The notes beneath the pieces were generated by a model that did not search any database, had not been told where the DNA came from, and saw only the letters and a program-made list of their open reading frames with translations. From Eledone cirrhosa (lineage: Eukaryota), in assembly GCA_964016885.1 (NCBI GenBank), contig OZ024743.1, forward strand, positions 282,286,001 through 282,350,000: 64,000 nt of DNA. Reading direction: 5' to 3'. A program made the translations under genes and the position numbers. Below, piece after piece: positions 28,001-52,568 of this stretch; position 1 is the first letter of the stretch, and each line of letters opens with the position of its first letter.

Positions 28001-31000
28001 CATTTTACACTGGTTCCTATCCTTATGACTCTGCACTTTCTCATACATTGTCATCACTGCTCTAACCTACCATTCCACCACTCTCAACTTTCTCAATGCC
28101 CATGTCACTATTTCACATGGAACCCTATTGAAAGTTTTCCCCAGATAGCAGATTTTTCCTAATCCTTGTACTTCTGTAACTACCTCACAATAAGAATAGC
28201 ATCAATTGTTCCTTTTCCCAGCACAAAACCAAACTGCATTTCATTAATCTTTACTTTTTGTCTTATAATCTTTTCTAACACTCTTTCCAATACTGCCACT
28301 CCATGTTCCATCGGCTTAATTGTTCTACACAAGCCAGTCTAGAGGATCACTGTTGTACAGAAGGATTAGAGTACTTAACTCCCAATCTATTGGAATAGTG
28401 TTCTTTCACAACAGATCCCTGTCCTCTTCACACTCCAACTTCCTACTGTCTTTAACATATCTCCCCATAATTCCTGTCAGCCCCATTGTCCTGCCACTCT
28501 TCCTCTTTCTCAATGTTTTCTCAACAATTTCCTCTGTCAGCATTGTTTTCTGACACCAACTCTTTTAGTTGTCTCTTACAACATGCAGAGATACGGTGTA
28601 CTATTCTAAACTGCATAATACACAGGCCTTGGTAGCACATTAGGCAACATGTCAGTCTCTGTGACACTACATCTCCCTGAGAATTACATTAAGGGTACTC
28701 ATGTCTGTGGAATGCTCAACCACGTGCCTGTTAATTTCATGAGCAGGCTGTTTCGTTGTTGGAGCAACTGGTACAAACATCATTGAAACCAACGGTGTTC
28801 AATTCCATACCTTGTTTACTAAACAGAAGAAAAAAAAGGAAACAAAGCAGCTACAATTGATAGCAAAGTACTTACTTGTCAACTAGATGTCGAGCTGTGT
28901 TTATTTGTCCCAGAGCAAGTTTGTAATGGTCCCGGTCATAGAGAACATTCATCAAATCAGCATAAAATGGATGAACATCCTATAAGATAGAGAAAGAGAT
29001 TTTAATTTCTCAAAGAACATATATATTTAATAACATAAATTATAGAGGATGCCAGTTATATAAAGGAATGCCAAGTGCTGTCAGTCAGGGAATTGGTGGA
29101 AGAGTGAAGGGACAGTACAGAAGAGGACCCTTGCTAGCAGGGTTTAGAAGAAGTTATTTAGTAGATGTTTGTGTTGAGAATGTATTGTATCACGGAAGTC
29201 ACCATTGAAGATCATCATCATCATCATCATCTTCGTTTAACGTCCATTTTCCACGCTAGCATGGGTTAGACGGAAGATGTTAAAAGCAATGTTGTGGAAA
29301 ATAGCATCTTATGACTTTATAATTGTTTATATATAATTTATTTACAGATTACAAAGGTTAGAAGAATGTCTCTTGAGAGGATAGTTAATGTTATCAATAA
29401 AAAGATTAGAAAGGTTTAAATGGCATGCCAAATTATTAATTAAGAGTTTAAGAAGGTACGGTCAACTGGCTGAGGCATTAGCCAGACCTGTAGTGATATA
29501 TGTTGCTATATATTGTCTATGCTTGAAGGAATAAAAGCAAGAGATGTTTACCTTCACGGTGTTGAGCTGCAAGAGATAGAGTTTCAAATCGCCGCGGGAA
29601 TCCCCCTTCTGGGCGCAAGTTGAGATACATTCTCCTACGCTGGTAGCGATTGGCTGAACTAAGCCAAACAACGTACGGAGAATGTATCTCGACTTCCGCC
29701 CAGAGGGGGGATTCCCGCGGCGATTCGAAACTATCTCTTGCAGCTCGACACCATGAAGGTAAACATCTCTTGCTTTTGTTCCTTCAAGCATAGACAATAT
29801 GTAGCAACAGATATCACTACAGGTCTGGCTAACGCCTCAGCCAGTTGACCGTACCTTCTTAGTCGCTTAATTAATAATTTCTCTTGGCATGCCATTTAAA
29901 CTTTTATTGATAACATTAACTATCCTCTCAAGAGACATTCTTCTAACCTTTGTAATCTGTAAATATATAAACAATTATAAAGTCGTAAGATGGTATTTTC
30001 CACAACATTGCTTTTAACATCTTCAATGGTGACTTCCGTGATACAATACACAGATACACACATTCTCAACTAAATAACTTCTAAATTGGTGACCCTGACG
30101 TGATTCGAACATGCAGTCTTCTGAAATGGAGTCAGACGTTACTTGCATATTGGTGACTCTAAGCTCTTCAACACTCGACTTCGATTCTACTGTGACTTCG
30201 CTTCGATAGCAGCAACAACTCTACTAGCTTCCTAGTAAGAGCGATAACATTCTTATCCCAAAGAAAAGAAAAAGTGAACTTTTTGTTAAAAAACAATTAT
30301 TTTTCTTTGGGATAAAAATGTTTTCGCTCTTACTAGGAAGCTAATAGAGTTGTTGTTGTTGCTGCTATCGAAGCAAAGTCACAGTAAATCTTCAGTAGAA
30401 TCGAAGTTGAGCCTTGTTAGCAGGGAAAGCAGACGTTAAAACGACAATGATGATAATGATGATCCAGATCTAACAGGAAAAGGAACATGAAATGAAATGT
30501 CTTGCTCAAGAACATGTGCTATACAGGCCAGAAATCAAACCCACAGCATTATAATCTTGAGTTCAACAGCATAACTATATGGTCATCACTTAAAGAAAAA
30601 ACTGCTAATATATAATATCAAACATTAATAAATAATACATATATTACATTAAAAATATCAAAATGTCTGCTCATACAAAGAGACATAGTGTTATCCTATA
30701 AAATGTAATATATTACTTGTTGTGTGTGTGTTTGATGGTGACATTTATGTCCCAGAGTTTAGCAGTCCAATGTGAAGATTTTACTTAAAAAAGACTACCA
30801 CCAGGAGAGGCCTCCACCCATACAATATTGCCTCAAAAATGTCTTGTCAACCCATGTTAATATGGAAACGTGGACGTAAAACCCATGAGATGATGATGAA
30901 TCAATAATTTTATTTTAGTTTTGTAACTTTAGTGCACATATTTAAATGAATAATTATGAAACCATTTCATTTATACATATTTTCAGATGACTAATGGAAT

Positions 31001-33904
31001 TTCATTTAGTAACATCTCTTAACTTATTTTGAAAAGATTTAATAATTTCTCTTAATAAAATTCACTACAACTACCTCTACTTTAGATGATGGTGTTGTTA
31101 TTGTTACCCCACTACAACTTAGCTATTAGTATAACATATAGCCCTCTCCTTGTGGATCAACCATTCAAAACTCATCAATTACATAACATTTAATTTCAAT
31201 TATGTTGGGAGTGACATTTTGGCATAATAAACACATTAAGTGAGAATAAAATTCATCAAATAAGATGAGTGCAGTCAGAAAAGTTTCTTTAATTCAAACC
31301 CAGAAAGTTTGCTACAAATGTTCTCCCTTCACACATAACTGTTCATTTAACATAAAAAGATTGAGGCAATATCACAGCACCTTAAAATGTGATTCCAAAA
31401 CAGAGCCCCAAGGAAGAAAATATTAATTTACTGGTGTGAAAAAGTATAATCTGTCATGACCAGGGTTTATCTATCAATAGATGATCAATCTTATTGATTT
31501 CAGGAGGAAGAATGAGCACAAGTGAAATAAAATTGCTACATTGAAAGCAAGTCACAAGTTCCATTTGCCATGAGTCATACCACTTAAACTTCTTCCATGT
31601 AAATCTCCATATGAAAGGTGGAAATATGAAATGCAATGTTATAATGGCATTGACAGTGAGTATAGAGGATCAAGTTGAGTAAGTTCTGCTGATGCACAAT
31701 GTCAACTTACGATAAAGGTTGACTACAAGTGACTTGTGAATGTATGTAGCTACCCAAGAAATTAGACAACTAGGGTGTATTTGGTTTAGAATAAGGCATA
31801 CCATATATCTACGTGTTGTAAGAAGCAATTAAAAGAGTTGGCACCAGGGAGAGCATCCTGCCATAAAACAATAGCTCAAAAAGAACCTCACGACAAGTAT
31901 AACATATGGATAGGATACAGATGAAGTACTTCGTGGGGTTCCTACTCCCTCTCTTCAAAGTGAGGAAGCCAGTCAAAACAAAAGACTTCAGTCCATTTAT
32001 GATGGCATAGTGCCTGGTGTTCCTCATGGAGACTGGTATATGATGTTTGGTATGTGGAATATAAGGACAATGACAGGGAAATCAGAAGTGGTGGATGAAC
32101 TAAGAACATGTGTAGACGTGTTGTGTGCAAGAGACAAGATGAAAGGAAGTGATACAATAAAGATAAGAGGATGACAAGGACAGAAGTACAAGTTTGTGTG
32201 GAAAGGGTGTTCAGAAGGTGTGCATAGTGTTGGTGAGTGAACAGTTGATGGTGAAGCTGGTGATTGGAATATTTTTGATCATCATCTCCAGATATGATCC
32301 ACAGGCAAGACAGTGTCGAAGAGAAAGACAAATTTTGATATGCAATAAAGATGATAGAGAAATTACCATGACAGAAAGGGATTTAAATAGACAAGAGGGA
32401 AGGAATATGGATGGTTTTGAGGGAGTCCAATGGGGGCTACAGGTATGGTGAGAAAAATAGGGGGCATGAAAGGATTTCGGAGTTTGATGGAGCTACGATG
32501 TCAATCTGTTAACACCCAATTCTAGAAAGGCAATTAAACTCATTACATACACATCAGGTTATTAACTGATGACTACATGATTGTACGTGGGCAAGATGGG
32601 AGGAAGCTTCATGATACAAAAGTAATCCCAAAGGAGCTTGTTATACAGCACCATCTAGTTGTCTGTTATTTGACAGTGAAAAGTGGGAGAACTCAGCAGA
32701 AGAAACATCAACCAAGGCAGAAAGTTAAAAGCGGCAACAATAACGGAGGTTCTAAGAGAGAAACTGACTGTTAGAAGATGACACAAATGAACTTGATAGC
32801 ACTTGGATGTCATTGAACAATGGTTTATTCATTAGGAGCTGTTAGGTGATGTGTGTGGATGGACAAAAGGATTAAAAAGACATTTGGAAACACGGTGGTA
32901 GGATGATGAAGTTGGAAATGGAAGGATTCAGAGAACAGAGAGAGAGGGTTATGGTAGTAGAAGAGGCAGTTCATTGAGGCTACAAAGAAGTGGCAAGAGT
33001 ACAAGAGGCACATAAAAGAATGTTTAGAGAATGAATGTATTCAGAGCAGGGTTAAAGAGAGTAGTTTAATATTGCAAGAGAGAAAGATGTGATATGGCAG
33101 GGGTGAACTGCTCAAAAGATAAAGTGGGAGAAGTTGCTGTAGACTCGACTGGAATTAAGGACAGTTAGAAGAGATATTTTGAGAATGAATGAGATGACAA
33201 CAAAGAGGGCAATTCAATTCTCAGACCAGCGGAGAAGATAGCTGACTAAGAAGTTCAGGAAGCAAGAAAGATGAAGAGAATGATGGAGATCTGTAAGGTG
33301 GTAGTGAAAGAAGACCTTATTCCAATAGATTGGTAGTTGAGTACTCTCAAATCTCTATACAAGGGAAAAGGAAATCTTCTAGAATAAAGGTTCTCAACGA
33401 AGGGGCATTATGCAGTAAGGGGGCGTTAGAAGCCCCTTTAGTTTGGTAAGTTTTATAAGTCATATTTGTATGTCTCTTAGACAGTCAGTGATTTGAATGA
33501 AGAAAACAAAAATAAATTAAAGAAGCTTGTCAACGAATTCCCTTGGGAGATAAAAGAAAATCAAAAATCAAGGAGAATGAAAGTAAGGACTACTTCAACA
33601 GAAATGACAAGAAGCAATGGTGGTGAACATACACACACATATATATATACATATACATACACACACCGGCCGGCGTTAGTGTTTGATGAAGTTGAGAACC
33701 TGGTCAGCTCTCAGCCAGAAGTGTGGTATTTAATCTCCCTAGGTAATAAAATCTGGCGACAAAAGTTTTCTCCTTACCAAAGACATAGATCATATCAACA
33801 TCCTTACACACTTAAATATAAATGCATGTATATATACAAATGTATAAATGCATAGTTATATACATACGTAAATGTATGTAGATTTATATATATATATATA
33901 AATC

Positions 33905-33943
<39 letters not shown>

Positions 33944-36900
33944 CTACATACATACATATATAAATCTACATACATACATACATATACATTTACATATGTA
34001 TATAGCTATGCATTTATACATTTGTATATATATATACATGTATTTATATTTAAGTGTGTAACGTTATATATATATATATATATATATGTGTATAATATAT
34101 ATATTATACACACACACACATATATATATATACATATATATATGCAGTGTGACAAGAAGCTTGTTTCCCAACCACATATTTCCGGGTTCAGTCCCACTGC
34201 CCGAGCCGACCAAAGCCCTGTAAGTGGATTTGATAGATCGAAACTAAAAGAAGCCCGCCGTATATATGTCTGTGATTGCCCTCCCACCAATGCTTGTTGG
34301 TTTGTTGACGTCCCCATAACTTACCAAGGTGATGCTCCAAAATGGGCGTAGTCCAGAGACAGAAAAAAAGTAAAATATATATATGTGTGTGTAGAAGAGG
34401 GGTCTCAAACTCAAGGACACAAAAGGGCTATTACGTCCTGGAGGAGACGCACAGTGGGCCAAACATGGTGGTGGGTGAAAATTTTCACCAGTTATGATCA
34501 TTTCTACTATAGGAACAAGGCATGAAATTTGGGGTTTAGGGTTCAGTTGATTGCATCGATCCTAGTACACAACTGGTACTTAATTCATCGACCCCAAAAG
34601 GATGTAAGGCAAAGTTGAGATCGACGGAATTTGAACTCAGAACGTAAAAACAGAAGAAGTCCCGTTAAGCATTTCGCCAGATGTGCTAACGATTCCACCA
34701 GCTCGCCTCCTTATTTCACCAGTTATAATGCGATATGAAATATTGGTTCTACCATGGGCCACATGTGTGAGCTCCCTGTTGGAGATAAATAGACGTGTAC
34801 CAAACACACACACATTTCTTACTCTCTCTGTCCCTCCCTCTTTCTCTCTTCATTTATATATATACTTGTCCGCCATTGCAAAAGGCCATAAATTCAAAAA
34901 ATTTTGGAGAGAGAGGAAAAGAGAAAAAGAGAGAAGAGATCTATGAACTTGTACATCTCACTGACCCCCCCCCCCCCGTCACCACAATAACAATAACGCC
35001 TACACTCGCTCCCCACCATCACCACATTACTCTAAGGTTGCTGTCCTGTCCCCTGTTGACATACTGCTGACTCTCTTTTGATGTATGTATGTGTATATAC
35101 ATATGTGTATGTGTGTGTATATGTATCTCTCAGTGGATGCGACCAAATTTCAACACAGCAACAACAGCAGCAACACCAACAACAACAACAGCAACAACAC
35201 CATCGTCTGTGTTGAATGTGTGTGCGTGTATGTATTTGTATATATGCGACAGCAATAACAGCATCAACACCATTGTCTGCAGCAACAGCAGCAGTGAAAT
35301 GAAGGACAACAACAACAGCAACAACGACAACAACTACAATAACAACTACAGCACCAACAACTGCCACCACCATCACTGACCATCCACCACCACCACCACC
35401 ACCACACTGACACCATCCACCACCGCCATTACCAGCGTAAAGCAAACAATTATTATTGTTATTATTATTATATACAAGCCGAACTGGACTGGGAAAGGTC
35501 AACAGTTGACATGATAGTGATTTTGACGATTTTGACTTTGTATCAGTACTGTCGGTAATATATGTATATATATGTGTTTGTGAATGGTGTGTGTGATTGT
35601 ATGCATGAATGAGTGTTGGTATGTGTGGTTGTGGTTTGTATGCATGAGTATTGGTGTGTGAGTGTTTGTGTGTGCGTCGTGTCAATAAGTTGTTTTTTTG
35701 CTTTTTTTTTGTTTTTTAATGACCATGCTGTAAAATGGAGTGGTAGAGAGGGCCCTTGAGTCTAGTAAGACATCCTCTCTAGTGCTGGTGGCACAAATAA
35801 AAGCACCCAGTCCATGCTGTAAAGTGGCGCTGGTGTTAGGAAGGGCATCTAACCAGTGTATCAATGCCAAAAAGCTTATCAGCACAGCAACAAAACAGCA
35901 TAGGAAAATATGAAGACGTCGCATCTCAGAGTTGCAACACTTAATGTTGGCACTCTCAGAGGTAGATCTGCTGAAATAGCGGAGATGCTGGAGAGAAGGC
36001 AGGTGGATGTGTGCTGCGTGCAAGAGGTGAGATGGAGAGGTGCCTCTGCGAGACTAGTCGTAGGCAAGCGTCTTAGCTATAAGCTATTCTGGGTAGGTAA
36101 GGATGATGGGTTAGGGGGAGTAGGCATTTTCCTGGCTGAGAAATGGATCAATAAGACAATAGAGGTAGTTCGAGTTAGTAATCGAATAATTAAGCTTAGA
36201 TTAGTTGTAGGTAGGAGACTACTGACAATCATCTCGGTCTATGCTCCCCAAGCAGGCCTAGGCAAAGATGAGAAAGACTGCTTTTATGAGCAACTTTTGC
36301 AAACAACCACAATGACAGAGGACGGAGACATCGTTATGCTAGCAGGAGACTTCAATGGTCATGTTGGACAGCTCCAGGATGGTTACACTGGGGTACATGG
36401 TGGGCACGGTTACGGTTCAAGAAATGAAGGAGTGAGACTTCTTGAATTTTGTGATGCGAGTACATTGACTATTTGCAACACAAACTTCCAGAAACCTGCC
36501 AATCACCTAATAACCTACAAATCTGGTGAGCACATAAGCCAGATTGACTTCCTGCTAGTTAGGCAGCGGGACAGGCAGATAGTGTCTAATACCAAGGCAT
36601 ACCCTGGGGAAGAATGTACTCCACAGCATAGGTTAGTTGTTAGTGATATCTCAGTAAGCAAGAGATGGAATGAGACATATAGGAAGGTGTGGAGAAGAAA
36701 GGTCTGGAAGCTAAAAGACCTTTCACTAAAATACAAATTTAGGAAAGCTCTTCAAGATGTATATGACGAAAAAGAAGACGATTTAGAGACGTATGACATA
36801 GATAATAACTGGAAGTTCTTACATGACAACTTGCTGCAGGCTACTGATGAAACCTGTTGCTGGAGCAGAGCTCCAACCAGACAGAGAGTGACCTGGCGGT

Positions 36901-39900
36901 GGAACAGCACAGTAGATAAGGCTATTAGAGACAAAAGACTAGCATGGAAGGCTTGGAAAAAGGGTGGGAGTAGGGAAGAATATACAGCCACTAAGAGAGA
37001 AGCTAGACGTCAGGTGTACTTAGCACGCAGGGAGGCAGAGAGTAGGAGGTTTGCCAATGTTCTGCGACGGGAAGATCAGAGGCGTGCGGTGTTCCACATT
37101 GCAAGGCAGTGTGTCAATGCAAATCAGGATGTTGTTGGAGATAAATGTGTCCGAGATGATGCCGGTGTACTTAGTGTCACGAATGACCAGAAAAAGGAGG
37201 CCTGGAAATGTCATTATGAGAGACTGATAAATGTGGAGAACGAATGGGAGAGAGAGAAATTACCCTTGGTAGATCCGACAGAGGGACCAGCTATTGAGAT
37301 TGACGAATATAGGGTCCAAGAGGCGATTAGGGAAATGAAAAATGGTAAGGCGGCCGGACCATCGTGAATAGTTGCTGAGATGCTGAAGGCATCAGGGGAT
37401 GTAGGCACTAAACTGGTTGCACGCATCATCAATCAGGCTATATATGGTGGTGTCATACCCAAAGACTGGTGCAGCAGTATTCTCATAAATTGCTACAAAG
37501 GTAAAGGGGATGCTTTGGAGAGGAGCAATTATAGGGGTATAAAACTGATAGATCAGGTTATGAAAGTGGCAGAAAGGATTTTAGCACAACTAATTAGAGA
37601 AAGGGTCAAACTAGATGAGATGCAGTTTGGTTTTGTGCCTGGGAAGAGTACAACAGATGCCCTCTTCTTGGTGAGACAAATGCAAAAGAGGTTCTTAGAG
37701 AAGAATAAGCCACTATACTTAGCCTTTGTTGACCTAGAGAAGGCCTTTGATAGGGTACCCGGATCTGTCATCTGGTGGTCCCTAAGGAAGCTAGGTGTTG
37801 AGGAATGGCTTGTGAGGACAGTGAAAACTTTGTACAGAGGTACTCTCAGTAAAGTCAGGGTAGGAATGGAGTTTAGTGAGGAATTCCAGATACAAGTAGG
37901 AGTACATCAGGGTTCGGTCCTCAGCCCGCTCTTGTTCATTATAGTCCTCCAAGCCATAACAGAGGAGTTTAAGACTGGCTGTCCATGGGAACTTCTCTAT
38001 GCTGACGATCTGGCTCTTATAGCAGAATCAGTAGAGGAGCTAGAGAATAAATTCCGGCTATGGAAACAGCAGTTGGAAGCAAGAGGACTGAGAGTAAATC
38101 TAGCTAAGACAAAAGTGTTGATGAGTAGAAAAGAGGACAAAACCCTGATTCCGTCAGGGAAATGGCCATGTTCGATATGCAGAAAAGGAACTGGCATAAA
38201 TTCTATAAAATGCACACAATGCAGGTCCTGGGTACACAAGAGATGTAGCGGGATAGCAGGCAAACTAACAGGTAGGGAGAAATATGTATGCAGTAGATGT
38301 ACAGGGAAATTAGACAGTAGAAGTCGCACTGATAGACACATTTTTCAAATGCGAGAGGGCGCTATAGAAGTGGTGGATAGCTTCCGGTACCTAGGAGATC
38401 AGATTAGCATGGGAGGAGGGTGTTCCGAGGCCATAGTATCTAGAATAAGGACGGGTTGGAAGAAGTTTAGGGAGCTGCTTCCTCTGTTGACGAAGAAGGG
38501 TTTCTCCCTGCGTACGAAAGGCCGGTTGTATGATGCCTGTGTGAGGAGCTCGATGCTGCATGGTAGTGAGACATGGGCAGCAACCGCAGAGGATATGCGA
38601 CGGCTGGAGAGAAATGAGGCAAGCATGCTCCGTTGGATGTGCAGTGTAAATGTGCGTGAACGACCCAGCATAAATGTGTTGAGAGAGAAACTGTGTCTGA
38701 GAGGGATAGAATGTAGTGTACGGGAGAGGAGACTGAGGTGGTATGGACATGTGATGCGCATGGAGGATGACTGATGGGTGAAGAAGTGCCAGGAAATGCC
38801 AGTTGAAGGAAGACGTGGTAGAGGTAGACCACGAAAAACATGGGCGGAGGTGGTGAGAACAAACCTCAGATCATTGAAGCTCACGGTGGAGATGACGAGT
38901 GGAGAGATGCTGTGCTGAATAAGACCCGTCCCACCCTTGCAAGCAGGGAAAAGCGGACGTAAAATGATGATGATGATATATATATGTGTGTGTGTGGAGC
39001 GTTGTTGAAAAGAGCTGTGGCCTTTGACCTGGCAATAAAAAACTGTAGACAAAATTCTTTCTGTACCCAAACCAAGTGTCTGTGTGTGTGTGTGTGTGTC
39101 TATCTATGTTTATATATAAGGGATAAAAATATTGCTTTCTCAGTCGCCAAGCTTCTCAATTCATTCCTTACTACTTTTTTGCAAGGTACTATTTTTCCCT
39201 TGAGTTTGTGATTTCAGAGAAAGGTAAGAAATTCTTCATATTTTGCATCTTTTGTATTTTGACTTTGCAGTTTCAATTGTCTATCCACTCAAAATATTAC
39301 AACAGCTAACAGTGAAATATAGAATTTAAAAAAAAAAAAGCTTTTTCGACTGAGATCAAATGTTTTTTTTATTTAAAAAATATATAATTTGAAATAGCTT
39401 GCTTTTGTTTTGGACTGAAACTTTTTTGTATTTAATTCGTACGAGTATTTTTTAAAGAATCTAAGATAACTTTATTTGGCCCAGTAATCTACTGATATCA
39501 AAATCATTAGTATATTGAAAAATGGAAAAATAGGCTAGGGCAGGGGGGCGTTTCGTGATTTCGAGGGGCAAAAGGGGGTTTGGCCAAAATGGGTTGAGAA
39601 CCTTTGCTCTAGAACATGGCTCATATAGAGCAATTAAGCTTTTGGAACATGGAATAGAGGTATTGGAAGATTAATGAAATGCAGTTTAGATTTGTGCTGG
39701 GAAAAGGAATGATTGATGTTATGTTTATTGTGAGGCAGTACAGGGATGAGCAAAAATTTGTTAATCTGGAGAAAGCTTTTAAGAGGCTTCCATGTAAAAT
39801 AGTGACATAGATATTGAGAAAGTTGAGAGTGGTGGAATGATTGGTTAGACTAGTGATGACAATGTATGAAAAAGTGTGTACAGTTATAAGGAACAATGAT

Positions 39901-48628: not shown

Positions 48629-48777
48629 CATCATTGTCATTGACATCATCATTGTTTTTATGCATGCTTTTCTCTGCTGAGTAGATCTTTTTAAGGCAGT
48701 GTTTTATGGCCAGATGCCCTTCTGATGCCCACCATTTTGGTCGCCTCTTATGACATGCAAGTATATAGTGTATCTAT

Positions 48778-49012
48778 TGTGGGTATGGTGTGGCGTGCGG
48801 TGGCCGGGGGCGGGGGGGGGGGGAGTGCTCGACCGGAAGGGGTCTTTTTGACCGGAAGGATGCTCGACCGGAAGGGCCAGGAGAGGGCCTCTCTCTAGTG
48901 GTGACCAGCATACGGTTTTAAGCAGTTGGACGCACGTGGAAGAGGAGTACCTGCAGTGGAATTTAGCGGCGCCTGTGAAAAGCGGTAAGTGAGATAGCTC
49001 TTTCTAACCACA
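48778..49012 (+). repeat. 5' LTR (235 bp)
   Basis: tgtgggtatgg…ctaaccaca; lacks a ~27-bp segment present in the 3' LTR. Confidence 0.93.
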
Positions 49013-49081
49013 AGCTATTTCGGCGACTGAAAAAAAAAAAAAAAAAAAAAAGAAAACACTTGCCGCAAAACAAATCAGAAG

Positions 49082-49460
49082 ATGGCGACAAGACTACAGA
49101 TGAACGAAGCTATCAGGCCATTCACCGGGGAAGGTGATGTTGTCGCTTGACTGCGGAAGGTTCGGCTGGTCGCGGGCTTGCAGAAGATAGAAGACATGGC
49201 CGGTCTCATTGCATTGTACCTCGAGGGCGACGCGTTGGTACTCTTCCTTGAGTTGGACGAGCACAGCCAAAGAGATGTGCAGAAGATTGAGAGGCGTCTG
49301 ATGGATGCATTCGCCGAGGGACCATTGGCGGCTTTTGCTAAGCTGGCGAGATCAGGTGGAATGGTGAGCGCGTCGACATTTTCGCAGCGGAAATAAGGCG
49401 GTTGGCTATGTTGGCGGGTTACCAGGCAGAATGCGAACGCACGGTGCGGTTAGCATTCTG
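49082..49460 (+). pseudogene. Gypsy gag remnant
   Basis: MATRLQMNEAIRPFTGEGDVVA*LRKVRLVA…LYLEGDAL; stop at 49148-49150, then a frameshift; no CCHC knuckle seen. Confidence 0.75.
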
Positions 49461-49483
49461 CCTTACGAGTAGCGGCGCTGCCG

Positions 49484-51436
49484 GTGGTGGAAGTCTTCGT
49501 GAGGGGAAAGCCACAGCGAGCCCTCGTGGATACGGGCTGTACGACGACACTGGTGACCGCGGGGGTGGCGCAGAGGTGGGGAGGGAAGAGCAGCGTAAGG
49601 GCAGTCGACAGCAGGAAAATTGAATGCCGAGGTTGCAGCGAGATGGAAATAGCGGTACGGGGAAGGACGATAAGGCTTTCCGCCATCGTGGTAGACAGTG
49701 TGGTGGATGGGATCGGCGTGGTTATGGGCATGGACACGATTGGCCGTCTAGGGGGCGTCACGGTGAACAATGTCGGTGTGTCGTTTGGTGCCGCTGCATC
49801 GGTATGCGCTGTGAGTGCACGTCGTGAGAACCAGAAGGCCCACGAGGGGCAATACCCCGCTTACACTGTACAGGACAAGGACTTCAAGGCCGTGTTTGAT
49901 GGGCAGCGATGGGTTGTTGAGTGGTACTGGAAGGGAGAACCACCAACACTGAAGACCAAAGTGGGCTGCTATCAACACACATTGAAGGGAAACGCTAGGG
50001 GCGAGTTCGAGCGAGAAGTAGAGAGATGGATCAAAGAGGGCATACTGCTTCCCTGGAAGGAGGAGGTGAAGTGCGGAGTATTGCCGTTGATGGCGGTGGT
50101 GCAACCCACGAAGAGCAAGGTGAGACCGGTGCTGGACTACCGAGAGCTGAACGAGCACGTGTCATGCCACACGGGTGGCGAGGTCACGGATGTCTGTGGG
50201 GAAACCCTGCGTGAGTGGAGACGCATGACGGGGGGTTCAGCGATCGTGGATCTAAAGTCGGCTTACTTGCAGTTGCATATAGATGAGAAGCTCTGGCGGT
50301 ATCAGCTGGTCAGGTATAAGGGCCGGACATATTGCCTGACCAGGCTCGGTTTCGGGCTGAGCTCCGCACCGAAGATCATGGCGACAGTCCTCAAGACTGC
50401 TCTGGGGAGGGCCGACAAGATAGAGAGGGCTACTAACTCCTACATTGACGACATCCTAGTGGACGAGTCAGTGGTGTCGATGGCGGAGGTCACGAGCCAT
50501 TTGCGGAGGTATGGACTGACTGCGAAGCCATCAGAAGCATTGGAGGGAGGAGCCGCGCTGGGACTTAGGCTACGGCGAGATAAGATGGGCGTTTTGGTGT
50601 TCCAGAGGGGAAACGAAGTTCCGGAACTGGGCCCAAGTATGAATAGGCGGGAGCTTTTCTCGGTGTGTAGAAAGCTGGTGGGTCACTACCCGATCGCTGG
50701 GTGGCTCCGGACGGCATGCAACTATGTCAAGAGACGAGCGGGAGGGGTGACTTGGAGTGACAGAGTGGGAGAGAGAACGGTGGCCATGATGCAGGAGATC
50801 GTGGGGAGGGTGAAGGCCGACGACCCAGTGCGGGGACGCTGGTACGTTCCCAAATCACGGAGCGGGACCGTATGGTGCGATGCCAGCAGCATAGCGCTGG
50901 GTGTCACGTTGGAGATAGGAGGTGTTGAGGTCGAGGATGCAGCCTGGCTTAGAAAGAAGGACGACTGCAGCCACATCAATGTGGCCAAGCTGGACGCAGT
51001 GTTGAGAGGGGTGAACCTCGCCCTGCGGTGGGGGCTGCGCACCATCGAGATACGCACCAACTCGGCTACCGTACTCAGATGGGTAAGATCAGTGCTCACC
51101 AGTGAGAAGAGAGTGCGAACGAGAGGCGCGGCGGAAATGCTGATAAAGCGCCGCCTGGGAACGTTAGGAGAGCTGGCCACTGAGTTCGACCTGAAGCTGA
51201 GCGTAGTGTTCGTGCCTTCAGAGAAAAATAGGGCGGACATCTTAACTAGAGTGAAGAAAGCCTGGATGGAAGCGCCGGAGGAGGTAGAGGATGAGATAGC
51301 TGCCGTGTGTCGGCTGACCGAGTTAGACCTGAAGGGGTTGCATGACATGCACCACATGGGGGTGGATAGGAGCCTGTTCCTAGCCAGGAGAATCGACTCA
51401 GACGTTAGCAGACACAGTGTTCGGGGGGGTGGTTAG
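49484..51436 (+). CDS. Gypsy pol: protease (ALVDTGC), RT (LDYRELN, DLKSAYLQ, YIDD), RNase H (CDAS…NRAD), start of the integrase HHCC
   Basis: 650-aa ORF with ordered motifs; ends at a frameshift in the poly-G near 51425. Confidence 0.9.
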   Translation: MVEVFVRGKPQRALVDTGCTTTLVTAGVAQRWGGKSSVRAVDSRKIECRGCSEMEIAVRGRTIRLSAIVVDSVVDGIGVVMGMDTIGRLGGVTVNNVGVSFGAAASVCAVSARRENQKAHEGQYPAYTVQDKDFKAVFDGQRWVVEWYWKGEPPTLKTKVGCYQHTLKGNARGEFEREVERWIKEGILLPWKEEVKCGVLPLMAVVQPTKSKVRPVLDYRELNEHVSCHTGGEVTDVCGETLREWRRMTGGSAIVDLKSAYLQLHIDEKLWRYQLVRYKGRTYCLTRLGFGLSSAPKIMATVLKTALGRADKIERATNSYIDDILVDESVVSMAEVTSHLRRYGLTAKPSEALEGGAALGLRLRRDKMGVLVFQRGNEVPELGPSMNRRELFSVCRKLVGHYPIAGWLRTACNYVKRRAGGVTWSDRVGERTVAMMQEIVGRVKADDPVRGRWYVPKSRSGTVWCDASSIALGVTLEIGGVEVEDAAWLRKKDDCSHINVAKLDAVLRGVNLALRWGLRTIEIRTNSATVLRWVRSVLTSEKRVRTRGAAEMLIKRRLGTLGELATEFDLKLSVVFVPSEKNRADILTRVKKAWMEAPEEVEDEIAAVCRLTELDLKGLHDMHHMGVDRSLFLARRIDSDVSRHSVRGGG

Positions 51437-52298
51437 AGGCTGCGTCCGATGTCAGTCCATTGATCCCGCCCCGGGTGTACACGAAACGGGAAACCTCCCG
51501 GTGGATCGCGACTGGAAGCGATTAGCGGTGGATGTGACGCACTACCGGCAGGGAACGTACCTCTCGATGGTCGACTGTGGACCGGGTTGAATGGCGATAT
51601 GGAGGGAGATGAAGACTGGAACGGCCAAGGAAATCGTGCGGACGTTGAGAGAGGTGTTCTTGGAGCGGGGCCCTGTGGATGAACTGCTGATGGACAACAG
51701 TGCAGCGTTCCGCTCGGAGGCACTGAGAGGGATGCTCGATGGATGGAAGGTGGACCGTTTCTTCAGAGCGGCGCACAGGCCGAGCGGGAATGGAATCGTG
51801 GAGCGACACCACCGGACGATCAAGGCAATGGCGGAGCGGAGCCATATCTCACCAATGGAGGCAGTGTTCTGGTACAATATGTCCCCTCGGGTTGGACAGG
51901 TCGAGGAATCGGTGCCACACAGAGCAGTATTCAAATACGAGTGGCGGCACCCGTGCACGCCACCACAACGGCCAGTGGGGAGAGAGAGTGCATTCGTGCA
52001 GGTGGGCGAAGAAGTCTGGGTTAAGCCTCCAGATGCACGGTGCACATCTCAATGGGGAAGGGGAACGGTGACGGCCGTAAATTCAAAGAACAATGTGTCC
52101 GTGGACGGGGTACCACGTCATGTCCTGGATGTAAGAAGAATCACTGTGTCGACGGACTCCGAGGAAGAGGAAACCCAAGATGAGGTGGAAACCCAGAGCC
52201 CTGCCCCAATACTACGAAGATCGCAACGGAGTCGTAGACCACCGACCTGGACGGCAGACTTTCATATGCAGAGGGACGAGGGGGAAATTGATCCTTGA
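51432..52298 (+). pseudogene. Gypsy integrase (CxxC, AVDV / MDNS / NGIVER)
   Basis: DDE motifs present; in-frame TGA at 51588-51590. Confidence 0.88.
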
Positions 52299-52311
52299 GA
52301 TCAGGGGAGCA

Positions 52312-52568
52312 TGTGGGTATGGTGTGGCGTGCGGTGGCCGGGGGCGGGGGGGAGTGCTCGACCGGAAGGGGTCTTTTTGACCGGAAGGATGCTCGACCGG
52401 AAGGGCCAGGAGAGGGCCTCTCTCTAGTGGTGACCAGCATACGGTGAGGACGTGTTTTGGGCAGCTCCCGGTTTTAAGCAGTCGGACGCACGTGGAAGAG
52501 GAGTACCTGCAGTGGAATTTAGCGGCGCCTGTGAAAAGCGGTAAGTGAGATAGCTTTTTCTAACCACA
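52312..52568 (+). repeat. 3' LTR (257 bp)
   Basis: Direct repeat of 48778-49012. Confidence 0.93.

What the first reader, a model, noticed from the sequence alone, without database searches (positions are those of the whole stretch)
29143..30411. Palindrome-tRNA(Trp)-palindrome insertion with a 14-bp TSD: possible integrated tRNA-primed snap-back cDNA
Seen: a ~940-bp palindrome whose right arm ends 1 nt before TGGTGACCCTGACGTGAT (PBS-Trp). The tRNA complement runs on for 52 nt and includes the CCA end. The left arm has no tRNA next to it. A second hairpin follows, and the whole 1269 bp is flanked by ccttgYtagcaggg direct repeats. There is no recognisable coding capacity. Known: LTR elements prime at an ~18-nt PBS to make minus strong-stop DNA, and their integrases make 4-6-bp TSDs, whereas LINE target-primed reverse transcription makes longer ones. 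Inference: the layout [rc(R-U5)]-loop-[R-U5]-[tRNA complement] is what would result if strong-stop DNA folded back, self-primed and copied into its own tRNA primer, then inserted by a non-integrase route. If multi-copy, it would be an unusual non-coding tRNA-primed hairpin retroelement. Inside NOG1 pre-mRNA it should form >400 bp of dsRNA, a potential ADAR or Dicer substrate.
Basis: partly seen in the sequence, partly recalled or inferred. Interest (0 to 1): 0.85.

Follow-up and report, generated by a model that had tools for sequence, protein, structure and literature searches.

The report
Fossil of misfired retrotransposon copying
This 1.3-kb double hairpin in a NOG1 intron is a single-copy scramble of an ordinary LTR retrotransposon joined to about 50 bases copied from a host tRNA, likely made when reverse transcription folded back on itself, and similar over-copied tRNA ends elsewhere in the genome carry errors at the positions where tRNA is predicted to be chemically modified.

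Summary
The parent is a ~2.9-kb non-coding LTR element (528-bp non-palindromic LTR, tRNA-Trp PBS, 4-bp TSD). The insert reads: inverted LTR, fold-back at the LTR's own 20-bp stem, forward LTR, CCA-bearing tRNA-Trp complement (52 nt), jump through 11/12 homology into parent internal sequence, second fold-back. The fold-back junction occurs once against 253 normal LTR ends. The left end is exactly the normal proviral terminus, so integrase likely inserted that end and host repair the other, giving the 14-bp duplication. The kind of accident recurs: 35 one-off tRNA-Trp copies of 25 nt or more among 80 PBS loci, several fold-back chimeras with 4-bp TSDs. Mismatches concentrate at A58 (5 of 16, P about 1e-4) and G37 (3 of 5 long copies); of 27 copies reaching 36 nt, 22 end at 36-42 and 5 at 48-52. 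That fits reverse-transcriptase signatures of m1A58, m1G37 and m2,2G26, which were not measured. Each step is known from HIV, ASLV or Ty1; the scan noted a similar snap-back in another genome. New variant of a known kind.

The parts
29129..29142 (+). Left copy of the 14-bp target duplication
   Evidence: 13 of 14 match to 30412-30425; both copies have T at base 7 where 7 of 7 paralogous repeat tails of this subtype have A
29143..29688 (-). Inverted LTR, parent LTR bases 528 to 30; begins exactly at the normal proviral U5 terminus, without the spacer base or PBS
29207..29278 (-). Later 60-nt insertion of a common repeat tail ending in (GAT)n, with a 6-bp duplication; present in the left arm only
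   Evidence: arm alignment and window self-BLAST
29624..29688 (.). Intrinsic LTR stem-loop (LTR bases ~30-95); fold-back crossover lies within 29669-29688, loop 29636-29676
   Evidence: junction unique in genome
29669..30085 (+). Forward LTR, parent LTR bases 76 to 528
30087..30138 (+). Complement of the 3' 52 nt of mature tRNA-Trp(CCA) including the CCA end; mismatches opposite A38 and G37
   Evidence: weak Rfam tRNA hit 30090-30166, minus strand, E 1.2
30127..30138 (+). Template-switch tract: 11 of 12 bases shared by the tRNA complement and the parent's internal region (parent base ~1088)
   Evidence: (5 distinct parent copies)
30139..30300 (+). Parent internal sequence in sense orientation, left arm and apex of hairpin 2
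30301..30411 (-). Inverted copy of the internal sequence (second fold-back); absent from parent copies
30412..30425 (+). Right copy of the 14-bp duplication; its first 5 bases match the expected continuation of the insert at 4 of 5; it begins an old repeat tail running to ~30464
28876..28979 (-). NOG1 exon downstream of the insert (host context)

Best explanation
The insert is a single-copy chimera of a non-coding tRNA-Trp-primed LTR element and host tRNA sequence, likely made in one faulty round of reverse transcription and likely inserted by integrase at one end and by host repair at the other. Inferred order: (1) tRNA-Trp primes minus-strand DNA, which copies the LTR from the U5 end to base 30; (2) its 3' end pairs with the LTR's own 20-bp stem and self-primes, copying the LTR back; (3) synthesis runs into the attached primer, past A58 and, with two errors, past G37, to about G26; (4) the new 3' end jumps through 11/12 homology onto minus-strand DNA of the internal region of another template; (5) after about 170 nt it folds back again on a 7-nt T-rich/A-rich match. 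If that strand ran back to the start it would give a duplex with one proper U5 end and one hairpin-capped end. Integrase would trim the spacer base and join the U5 end; the capped end, opened about 110 nt off-centre, would leave the short second palindrome and anneal by 4/5 microhomology 14 bases from the first joint, duplicating 14 bp. Shown: the parts, their order, the junction homologies, the exact terminus, single copy. Inferred: every enzymatic step. The product is dead as a mobile element (no direct LTR pair, no PPT).
For: Parts map to one parent family. CCA is not in the host genes seen, and the parent PBS differs from tRNA at 2 of 16 bases while the insert follows tRNA. Fold-back on an intrinsic stem, z -3.2; junction 1 vs 253. 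Normal copies end at the same base and have 4-bp TSDs in 11 of 12 evaluable cases. All 5 loci with an upstream inverted U5 arm in the screen (window, L041, L070, L117, L125), plus L042 seen by eye, start that arm at the terminus without the spacer base. Fold-back chimeras with LTR termini on both sides have 4-bp TSDs: L054, L070, L086, L102 at 4 of 4, L034 at 3 of 4; L130 has one LTR terminus and a 29-nt-or-longer duplication. Both hairpins are equally diverged, 4.9% and 5.3%. HIV self-priming at TAR (PMC4668388, passages), stops and read-through at tRNA 58 and 37 (PMC13191261, passages), one-ended integration with longer duplications (PMC5041404, passages).
Against: The arms share only 1 private variant, which 12 of 120 unrelated family pairs also reach, and are no closer to each other (5.1%) than to the nearest family copies (4.4-5.1%), so self-copying is not proven over two templates. 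Inverted arms are only weakly enriched beside long tRNA copies (8 of 35 vs 3 of 45, P = 0.051). Right ends of L041, L042, L050, L077, L117, L125 were not resolved. The 4/5 microhomology has its mismatch at base 2. No empty site was found. No coding partner with this LTR was identified. A 14-bp duplication inside a LINE-like tail also fits LINE endonuclease cutting.
Confidence: 0.7

Rival explanations
1. Same faulty cDNA, but captured without integrase at a staggered break (LINE endonuclease or double-strand-break repair).
For: 14-bp duplication instead of 4 bp; the target is an old LINE/SINE-like tail; microhomology at the right end; Ty1 replication intermediates are captured at breaks in yeast (PMC11372161, passages).
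Against: The left end is exactly the integrase-processed terminus here and in 5 other loci; sister chimeras with two LTR ends show 4-bp TSDs.
Confidence: 0.17
2. A provirus that already had an over-long PBS was rearranged later as chromosomal DNA by replication template switching (inverted duplications), with no fold-back during reverse transcription.
For: Short inverted repeats seed fold-back inversions in DNA too (general knowledge); coding families with fixed 29-40-nt PBS exist in this genome; arm comparison cannot show self-copying.
Against: Needs three separate switches, all inside the element, with the host flanks left collinear and duplicated by 14 bp; this family's PBS is short and imperfect; the jump uses tRNA positions 25-36, which only a primer copy supplies.
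Confidence: 0.08
3. A multi-copy, tRNA-primed hairpin retroelement that amplifies as a unit.
For: The layout inverted U5 / U5 / long tRNA copy recurs in L117 and L125.
Against: Those loci come from other LTR families and differ in every junction; this fold-back junction is found once with up to 2 mismatches; none of the 39 other loci scored, of 411 candidates, has the tRNA-internal junction.
Confidence: 0.03
4. Assembly artefact from fold-back chimeric reads.
For: No listed contig spans the whole insert; the left junction is overlapped by only 29 bases, under the tool's 31-base rule.
Against: Arms differ by 20 substitutions, 10 gap events and a later insertion with its own duplication; a 180-nt contig from a second sample (X4) covers 30023-30192, the LTR-tRNA-internal junction, with 1 difference.
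Confidence: 0.02

Closest known systems
TAR-dependent self-priming of HIV-1 minus-strand strong-stop DNA (PMC4668388, passages; original paper seen only as a reference title)
   Same: Nascent minus-strand LTR DNA folds on a hairpin near the LTR 5' end and extends back toward the primer.
   Different: Described there as abortive products, mainly in vitro; here it is a fixed chromosomal copy of a Gypsy-type element that goes on through the tRNA and two more switches.
Primer over-extension in retroviral plus-strand synthesis (PMC13191261, passages)
   Same: Copying of the primer tRNA stops mainly before m1A58, with minor products further in, including position 37.
   Different: Here read-through products are integrated in the genome by the dozen, with misread bases at 58 and 37, and reach positions 25-29.
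One-ended (aberrant) integration in ASLV and HIV-1 (PMC5041404, passages)
   Same: One normal integrase junction, the other end joined by host enzymes with a longer duplication.
   Different: Induced by mutation or drugs there, duplications often hundreds of bp; here natural and 14 bp.
Ty1 composite elements and cDNA captured at breaks in yeast (PMC2939329, PMC11372161, passages)
   Same: Template switching from pausing intermediates that end in tRNA-complementary bases; inserted in chromosomes.
   Different: 12 nt of tRNA complement and foreign DNA in Ty1; here 44-52 nt and two fold-back palindromes from the element itself.
CsRn1 lineage of Ty3/Gypsy (PMC3630058, passage) - for the parent
   Same: tRNA-Trp PBS and 4-bp TSD; coding Trp-primed elements in this genome have the CHCC gag motif and a Ty3-like RT.
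   Different: The parent is non-coding (longest stop-free frame 142 aa), so the link is by cis features only.
Helenus TRIMs (PMC10886601, first of six parts and passages)
   Same: Non-coding LTR element with tRNA-derived sequence; animal families have 4-bp TSDs.
   Different: Helenus has a tRNA-like Pol III promoter inside both LTRs and is multi-copy; here a 3' tRNA piece with CCA replaces the PBS once and lacks the 5' third.

Membership tests
Normal LTR retrotransposon insertion (the window insert) | Two LTRs in direct orientation around PBS and PPT | tested here: not met
   LTR copies are inverted, no PPT or 3' LTR
Normal LTR retrotransposon insertion (the window insert) | Family-length TSD (4 bp) | tested here: not met
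   14 bp vs 4 bp in 11 of 12 family copies
One-ended integration product | One junction at the normal processed terminus | tested here: met
One-ended integration product | Other end non-terminal, with longer duplication or deletion of host DNA | tested here: met
   right end is internal sequence, 14-bp duplication
One-ended integration product | Integrase shown to make the joint | not testable with these tools
   needs biochemistry
Self-primed minus-strand strong-stop DNA | Fold-back at a hairpin of the nascent minus strand | tested here: met
Self-primed minus-strand strong-stop DNA | Minus strand ends at the RNA 5' end (R start) | not testable with these tools
   transcription start of the parent unknown; only contigs were laid
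Self-primed minus-strand strong-stop DNA | Both arms from one molecule | tested here: inconclusive
   1 shared private variant
CsRn1 lineage (parent family) | PBS complementary to tRNA-Trp | tested here: met
   14 of 16 bases
CsRn1 lineage (parent family) | 4-bp TSD | tested here: met
   11 of 12
CsRn1 lineage (parent family) | CHCC gag motif | tested here: inconclusive
   parent is non-coding; motif present in coding Trp-primed elements of other LTR families
CsRn1 lineage (parent family) | GPY motif in integrase and RT phylogeny | not tested
   no coding partner with this LTR identified
Helenus / TRIMp3 | tRNA-derived Pol III promoter inside each LTR, multi-copy | tested here: not met
   tRNA piece is outside the LTR, lacks the 5' 23 nt, single copy
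MITE / foldback DNA transposon | Terminal inverted repeats at both ends and multiple copies | tested here: not met
   the two ends are unrelated sequences; single copy

The most novel reading that the evidence does not exclude
In this animal the Trp-primed Gypsy reverse transcriptases routinely read through m1A58 of their primer, and the genome has kept dozens of integrated by-products that record the germline tRNA modification map (misreads at A58 and G37, stops near G37 and G26) and the in vivo rates of self-priming and one-ended integration; some coding families have even fixed 32- to 40-nt primer-binding sites, implying plus-strand transfer from a stop at position 37 instead of 58.
Probability: 0.5. 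Interest if true: 0.7.

Novelty: new variant of a known kind. Interest (0 to 1): 0.55.

Why it matters
Self-priming, primer over-extension and one-ended integration are known mostly from in vitro or drug- and mutant-driven experiments. Here they appear together as inherited DNA, and they can be counted across a genome. If the position-specific errors are modification signatures, old insertions become a readable record of tRNA modification in germ cells. The process also makes long perfect palindromes inside genes: this one would put about 400 bp plus 95 bp of duplex into NOG1 pre-mRNA 163 nt from a splice site (predicted -821 kcal/mol). No function or effect on the host was shown.

Tried and rejected
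ARAGORN finds no tRNA in the window; Rfam gives only below-threshold hairpin matches and a weak tRNA hit. No RNA holder was listed for the stretch. All four runs laid are contigs: no empty site or editing could be read, because paralogous LTRs dominate depth; X5 and X6 (other organisms) gave no joint across the insert. X4 holds a contig with the NOG1 exon joined to both neighbouring exons, so it is probably RNA, but it is not on record as such. Shared-variant test of self-copying: inconclusive. Enrichment of inverted arms beside long tRNA copies: borderline. The strict 14-mer scan of 80 loci found L070, L117, L125 and an ambiguous L135, and missed the window, L041 and L042 because of indels or mismatches near the end; those three rest on inspection. 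My note of a 5-bp TSD after one search was wrong and was corrected. A second tRNA-binding site in the parent was considered; an 11/12 match somewhere in 1.9 kb is expected about 0.3 times (hand estimate), so it is not claimed. Literature: ten searches listed no paper whose title or abstract start describes integrated LTR-tRNA read-through palindromes or modification signatures in genomic copies; the library lacks most subscription papers, so this is weak. PMC2175344 gave only reference titles; PMC5371799 and PMC3587641 passages added nothing. No supplements were read. The organism was not identified; a cephalopod is my guess from recalled repeat resemblance, untested.

Full report
Observation. 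The large palindrome spans 29143-30085; one base later TGG starts a complement of tRNA-Trp. Against a host tRNA-Trp gene fetched from the same genome (L096; ARAGORN) with CCA added, the match runs 52 nt with mismatches at copy positions 10, 26, 31, 39 and 40. The first three are C-to-T changes, two of them at CpG; the last two lie opposite A38 and G37, next to the anticodon. The 14-bp flanks match 13 of 14. They belong to an old repeat tail, and both carry T at base 7 where all 7 paralogous tails of that subtype seen carry A, which favours duplication of one site. The host gene is NOG1 on the minus strand; the insert lies in a 12.2-kb intron, 163 nt from the acceptor.

The parent. A search of the own genome gave 152 matches from 40 scored of 2,099 candidates. 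Most are solo LTRs or ~2.9-kb elements with two direct LTRs. The LTR is 528 bp, TGTAG to TCTAAA, with one spacer base before an imperfect tRNA-Trp PBS, a PPT before the 3' LTR, and a 4-bp TSD in 7 of 8 solo LTRs and 4 of 4 whole elements that could be scored (three 3' LTRs without their partner in view left out). The internal region of the copy checked has no frame over 142 aa. PBS and TSD fit the CsRn1 lineage of Ty3/Gypsy as defined in PMC3630058 (passage), which PMC6238403 (passage) reports in 9 of 12 cephalopods. Coding Trp-primed elements here have the CHCC gag motif, RT, RNase H and integrase domains, and Ty3 RT as best solved relative. No coding partner with this LTR was found.

Anatomy. 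Mapped on one real parent copy the insert is LTR 528 to 30 inverted, LTR 76 to 528 forward, tRNA complement, internal 1088 to about 1260 forward, internal 1245 back to about 1136 inverted. The first crossover lies in a 20-bp stem that the normal LTR already has (DNA fold z -3.2, 1 of 200 shuffles as good). The tRNA-to-internal junction lies in a 12-base tract shared at 11 positions; the one distinguishing base follows the tRNA, not the 5 distinct parent copies seen. The second fold-back uses a T-rich tract pairing with an A-rich one upstream. The two hairpins are equally old (4.9% and 5.3%), within the range of LTR pairs of whole elements (1.7% and 5.4%) and of family copies.

Copy number. The fold-back junction is found once, the normal continuation 253 times, both with up to 2 mismatches. 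All 39 other loci scored with the tRNA-internal junction start at or after the homology tract and lack the inversion (40 of 411 candidates scored). The unit is therefore a one-off, not a family.

How it was inserted. The left arm begins at the very base where normal proviruses end, without the spacer base or PBS. In the screen of 80 non-redundant PBS loci (94 given, 5 without CCA and 9 duplicates dropped) five had an inverted U5 arm upstream, and all five start at the terminus (window, L041, L070, L117, L125); L042 does too by inspection. Chimeras with LTR termini on both sides have the family's 4-bp TSD (L054, L070, L086, L102; L034 at 3 of 4). L130 has one terminus and a duplication of at least 29 nt after filler DNA. 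Six others were not resolved. PMC5041404 (passages) describes this outcome for retroviral DNA with one bad end: a normal junction on one side, host joining with a longer duplication on the other. A simple route to a usable U5 end is that the second fold-back primed the whole return strand, leaving a hairpin cap that was opened off-centre; this is inference only.

The wider class. Patterns for CCA-bearing tRNA-Trp complement show that over-copied primers are common. Of the 80 loci, 24 have 24 nt or less, 21 belong to coding families with a fixed long PBS (17 at 29-32 nt, 4 at 40 nt), and 35 are unshared copies of 25 nt or more, a few of which may be family members missed by the sharing test. 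The sample is partial: 30 of 42 hits, 30 of 87, all 24, and 20 more fetched by hand. Among the 28 genome hits with at most one mismatch in 35 bases, 5 of the 16 mismatches sit opposite A58 (G, G, A, A, C; P = 8e-5 for that position, 3e-3 corrected for 33 positions); three of them are in related LTRs with different letters, so they are independent. Of the 5 copies longer than 42 nt, 3 are wrong opposite G37, and 3 of the 4 mismatches in positions 36-48 fall there (P = 0.002), while 13 of 13 host gene copies seen have the standard base. Of 27 unshared copies reaching 36 nt, 22 end at 36-42, none at 43-47, 5 at 48-52, none beyond. m1A58, m1G37 and m2,2G26 are known sites of reverse-transcriptase errors in animal tRNAs (PMC11417395, passages), and HIV plus-strand synthesis has stops at 58 and 37 (PMC13191261, passages). 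That this animal's tRNA-Trp bears these marks is inferred, not measured. Against: the gene check at A58 was partly forced by the search pattern, and inverted arms are only borderline enriched beside long copies (8 of 35 vs 3 of 45, P = 0.051).

Reality and expression. The arms differ by 20 substitutions, 10 gap events and a later insertion, which a chimeric read would not give. A contig from a second sample covers the LTR-tRNA-internal junction with one difference, and a contig of X1 runs from the flank 29 bases into the left arm without differences. The minus strand folds into long stems, but no editing, small-RNA or empty-site evidence was obtained.

Comparison and verdict. Each step has a precedent: TAR-driven self-priming (PMC4668388, passages), primer over-extension, Ty1 composite elements ending in tRNA-complementary bases (PMC2939329, passages), cDNA capture at breaks (PMC11372161, passages), one-ended integration. 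Older yeast reports of captured Ty1 strong-stop DNA are recalled, not read. It is not Helenus (PMC10886601), a MITE or a normal provirus. What I did not find in ten searches of a limited library is the combination fixed in an animal genome, recurring across families, with position-specific primer errors. Verdict: real, explained, single-copy and probably functionless, but a clear member of a countable class; new variant of a known kind, interest 0.55.

Noticed in passing
L071-L075, L079, L080, L083, L087, L089, L135, L137-L139, L141, L143, L144; L098, L116, L123, L124: Coding Trp-primed Gypsy elements with a fixed PBS of 29-32 nt (17 copies) or 40 nt (4 copies, ending opposite G37); L116 differs at A58 and at an isodecoder position, as if re-copied from the primer.
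   Followed up: partly
L153 (G000:C3:97969000-97978500): Element with two direct LTRs and RNase H/integrase coding that holds an internal 1,155-bp palindrome at 95% starting 61 nt after the PBS.
   Followed up: partly
L034:3128-5826: Second multi-fold-back chimera of the same family, with U3 termini at both ends and a 3-of-4 TSD.
   Followed up: partly
L031 internal region, parent base ~1088: 12-base site complementary at 11 positions to tRNA-Trp 25-36, intact in 4 of 5 distinct copies seen; might be a second primer contact for a family with an imperfect PBS, but chance cannot be excluded.
   Followed up: partly
window 35904-38771: LINE with long endonuclease and RT frames and a PHD finger, split by one stop.
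   Followed up: no
window ~48700-52560: GC-rich LTR-like element with protease, RT and DUF7047 matches between similar terminal stretches.
   Followed up: no
G000:C4:353.39-353.49 Mb; G000:C4:282285293 (L096): Tandem array of about 36 tRNA-Trp-like units; a single tRNA-Trp gene lies about 700 bp upstream of the window start.
   Followed up: no
window 28556-28597 and 31800-31841: 42-nt inverted pair, 83% complementary, 3.2 kb apart, bracketing the NOG1 exon and the insert.
   Followed up: no
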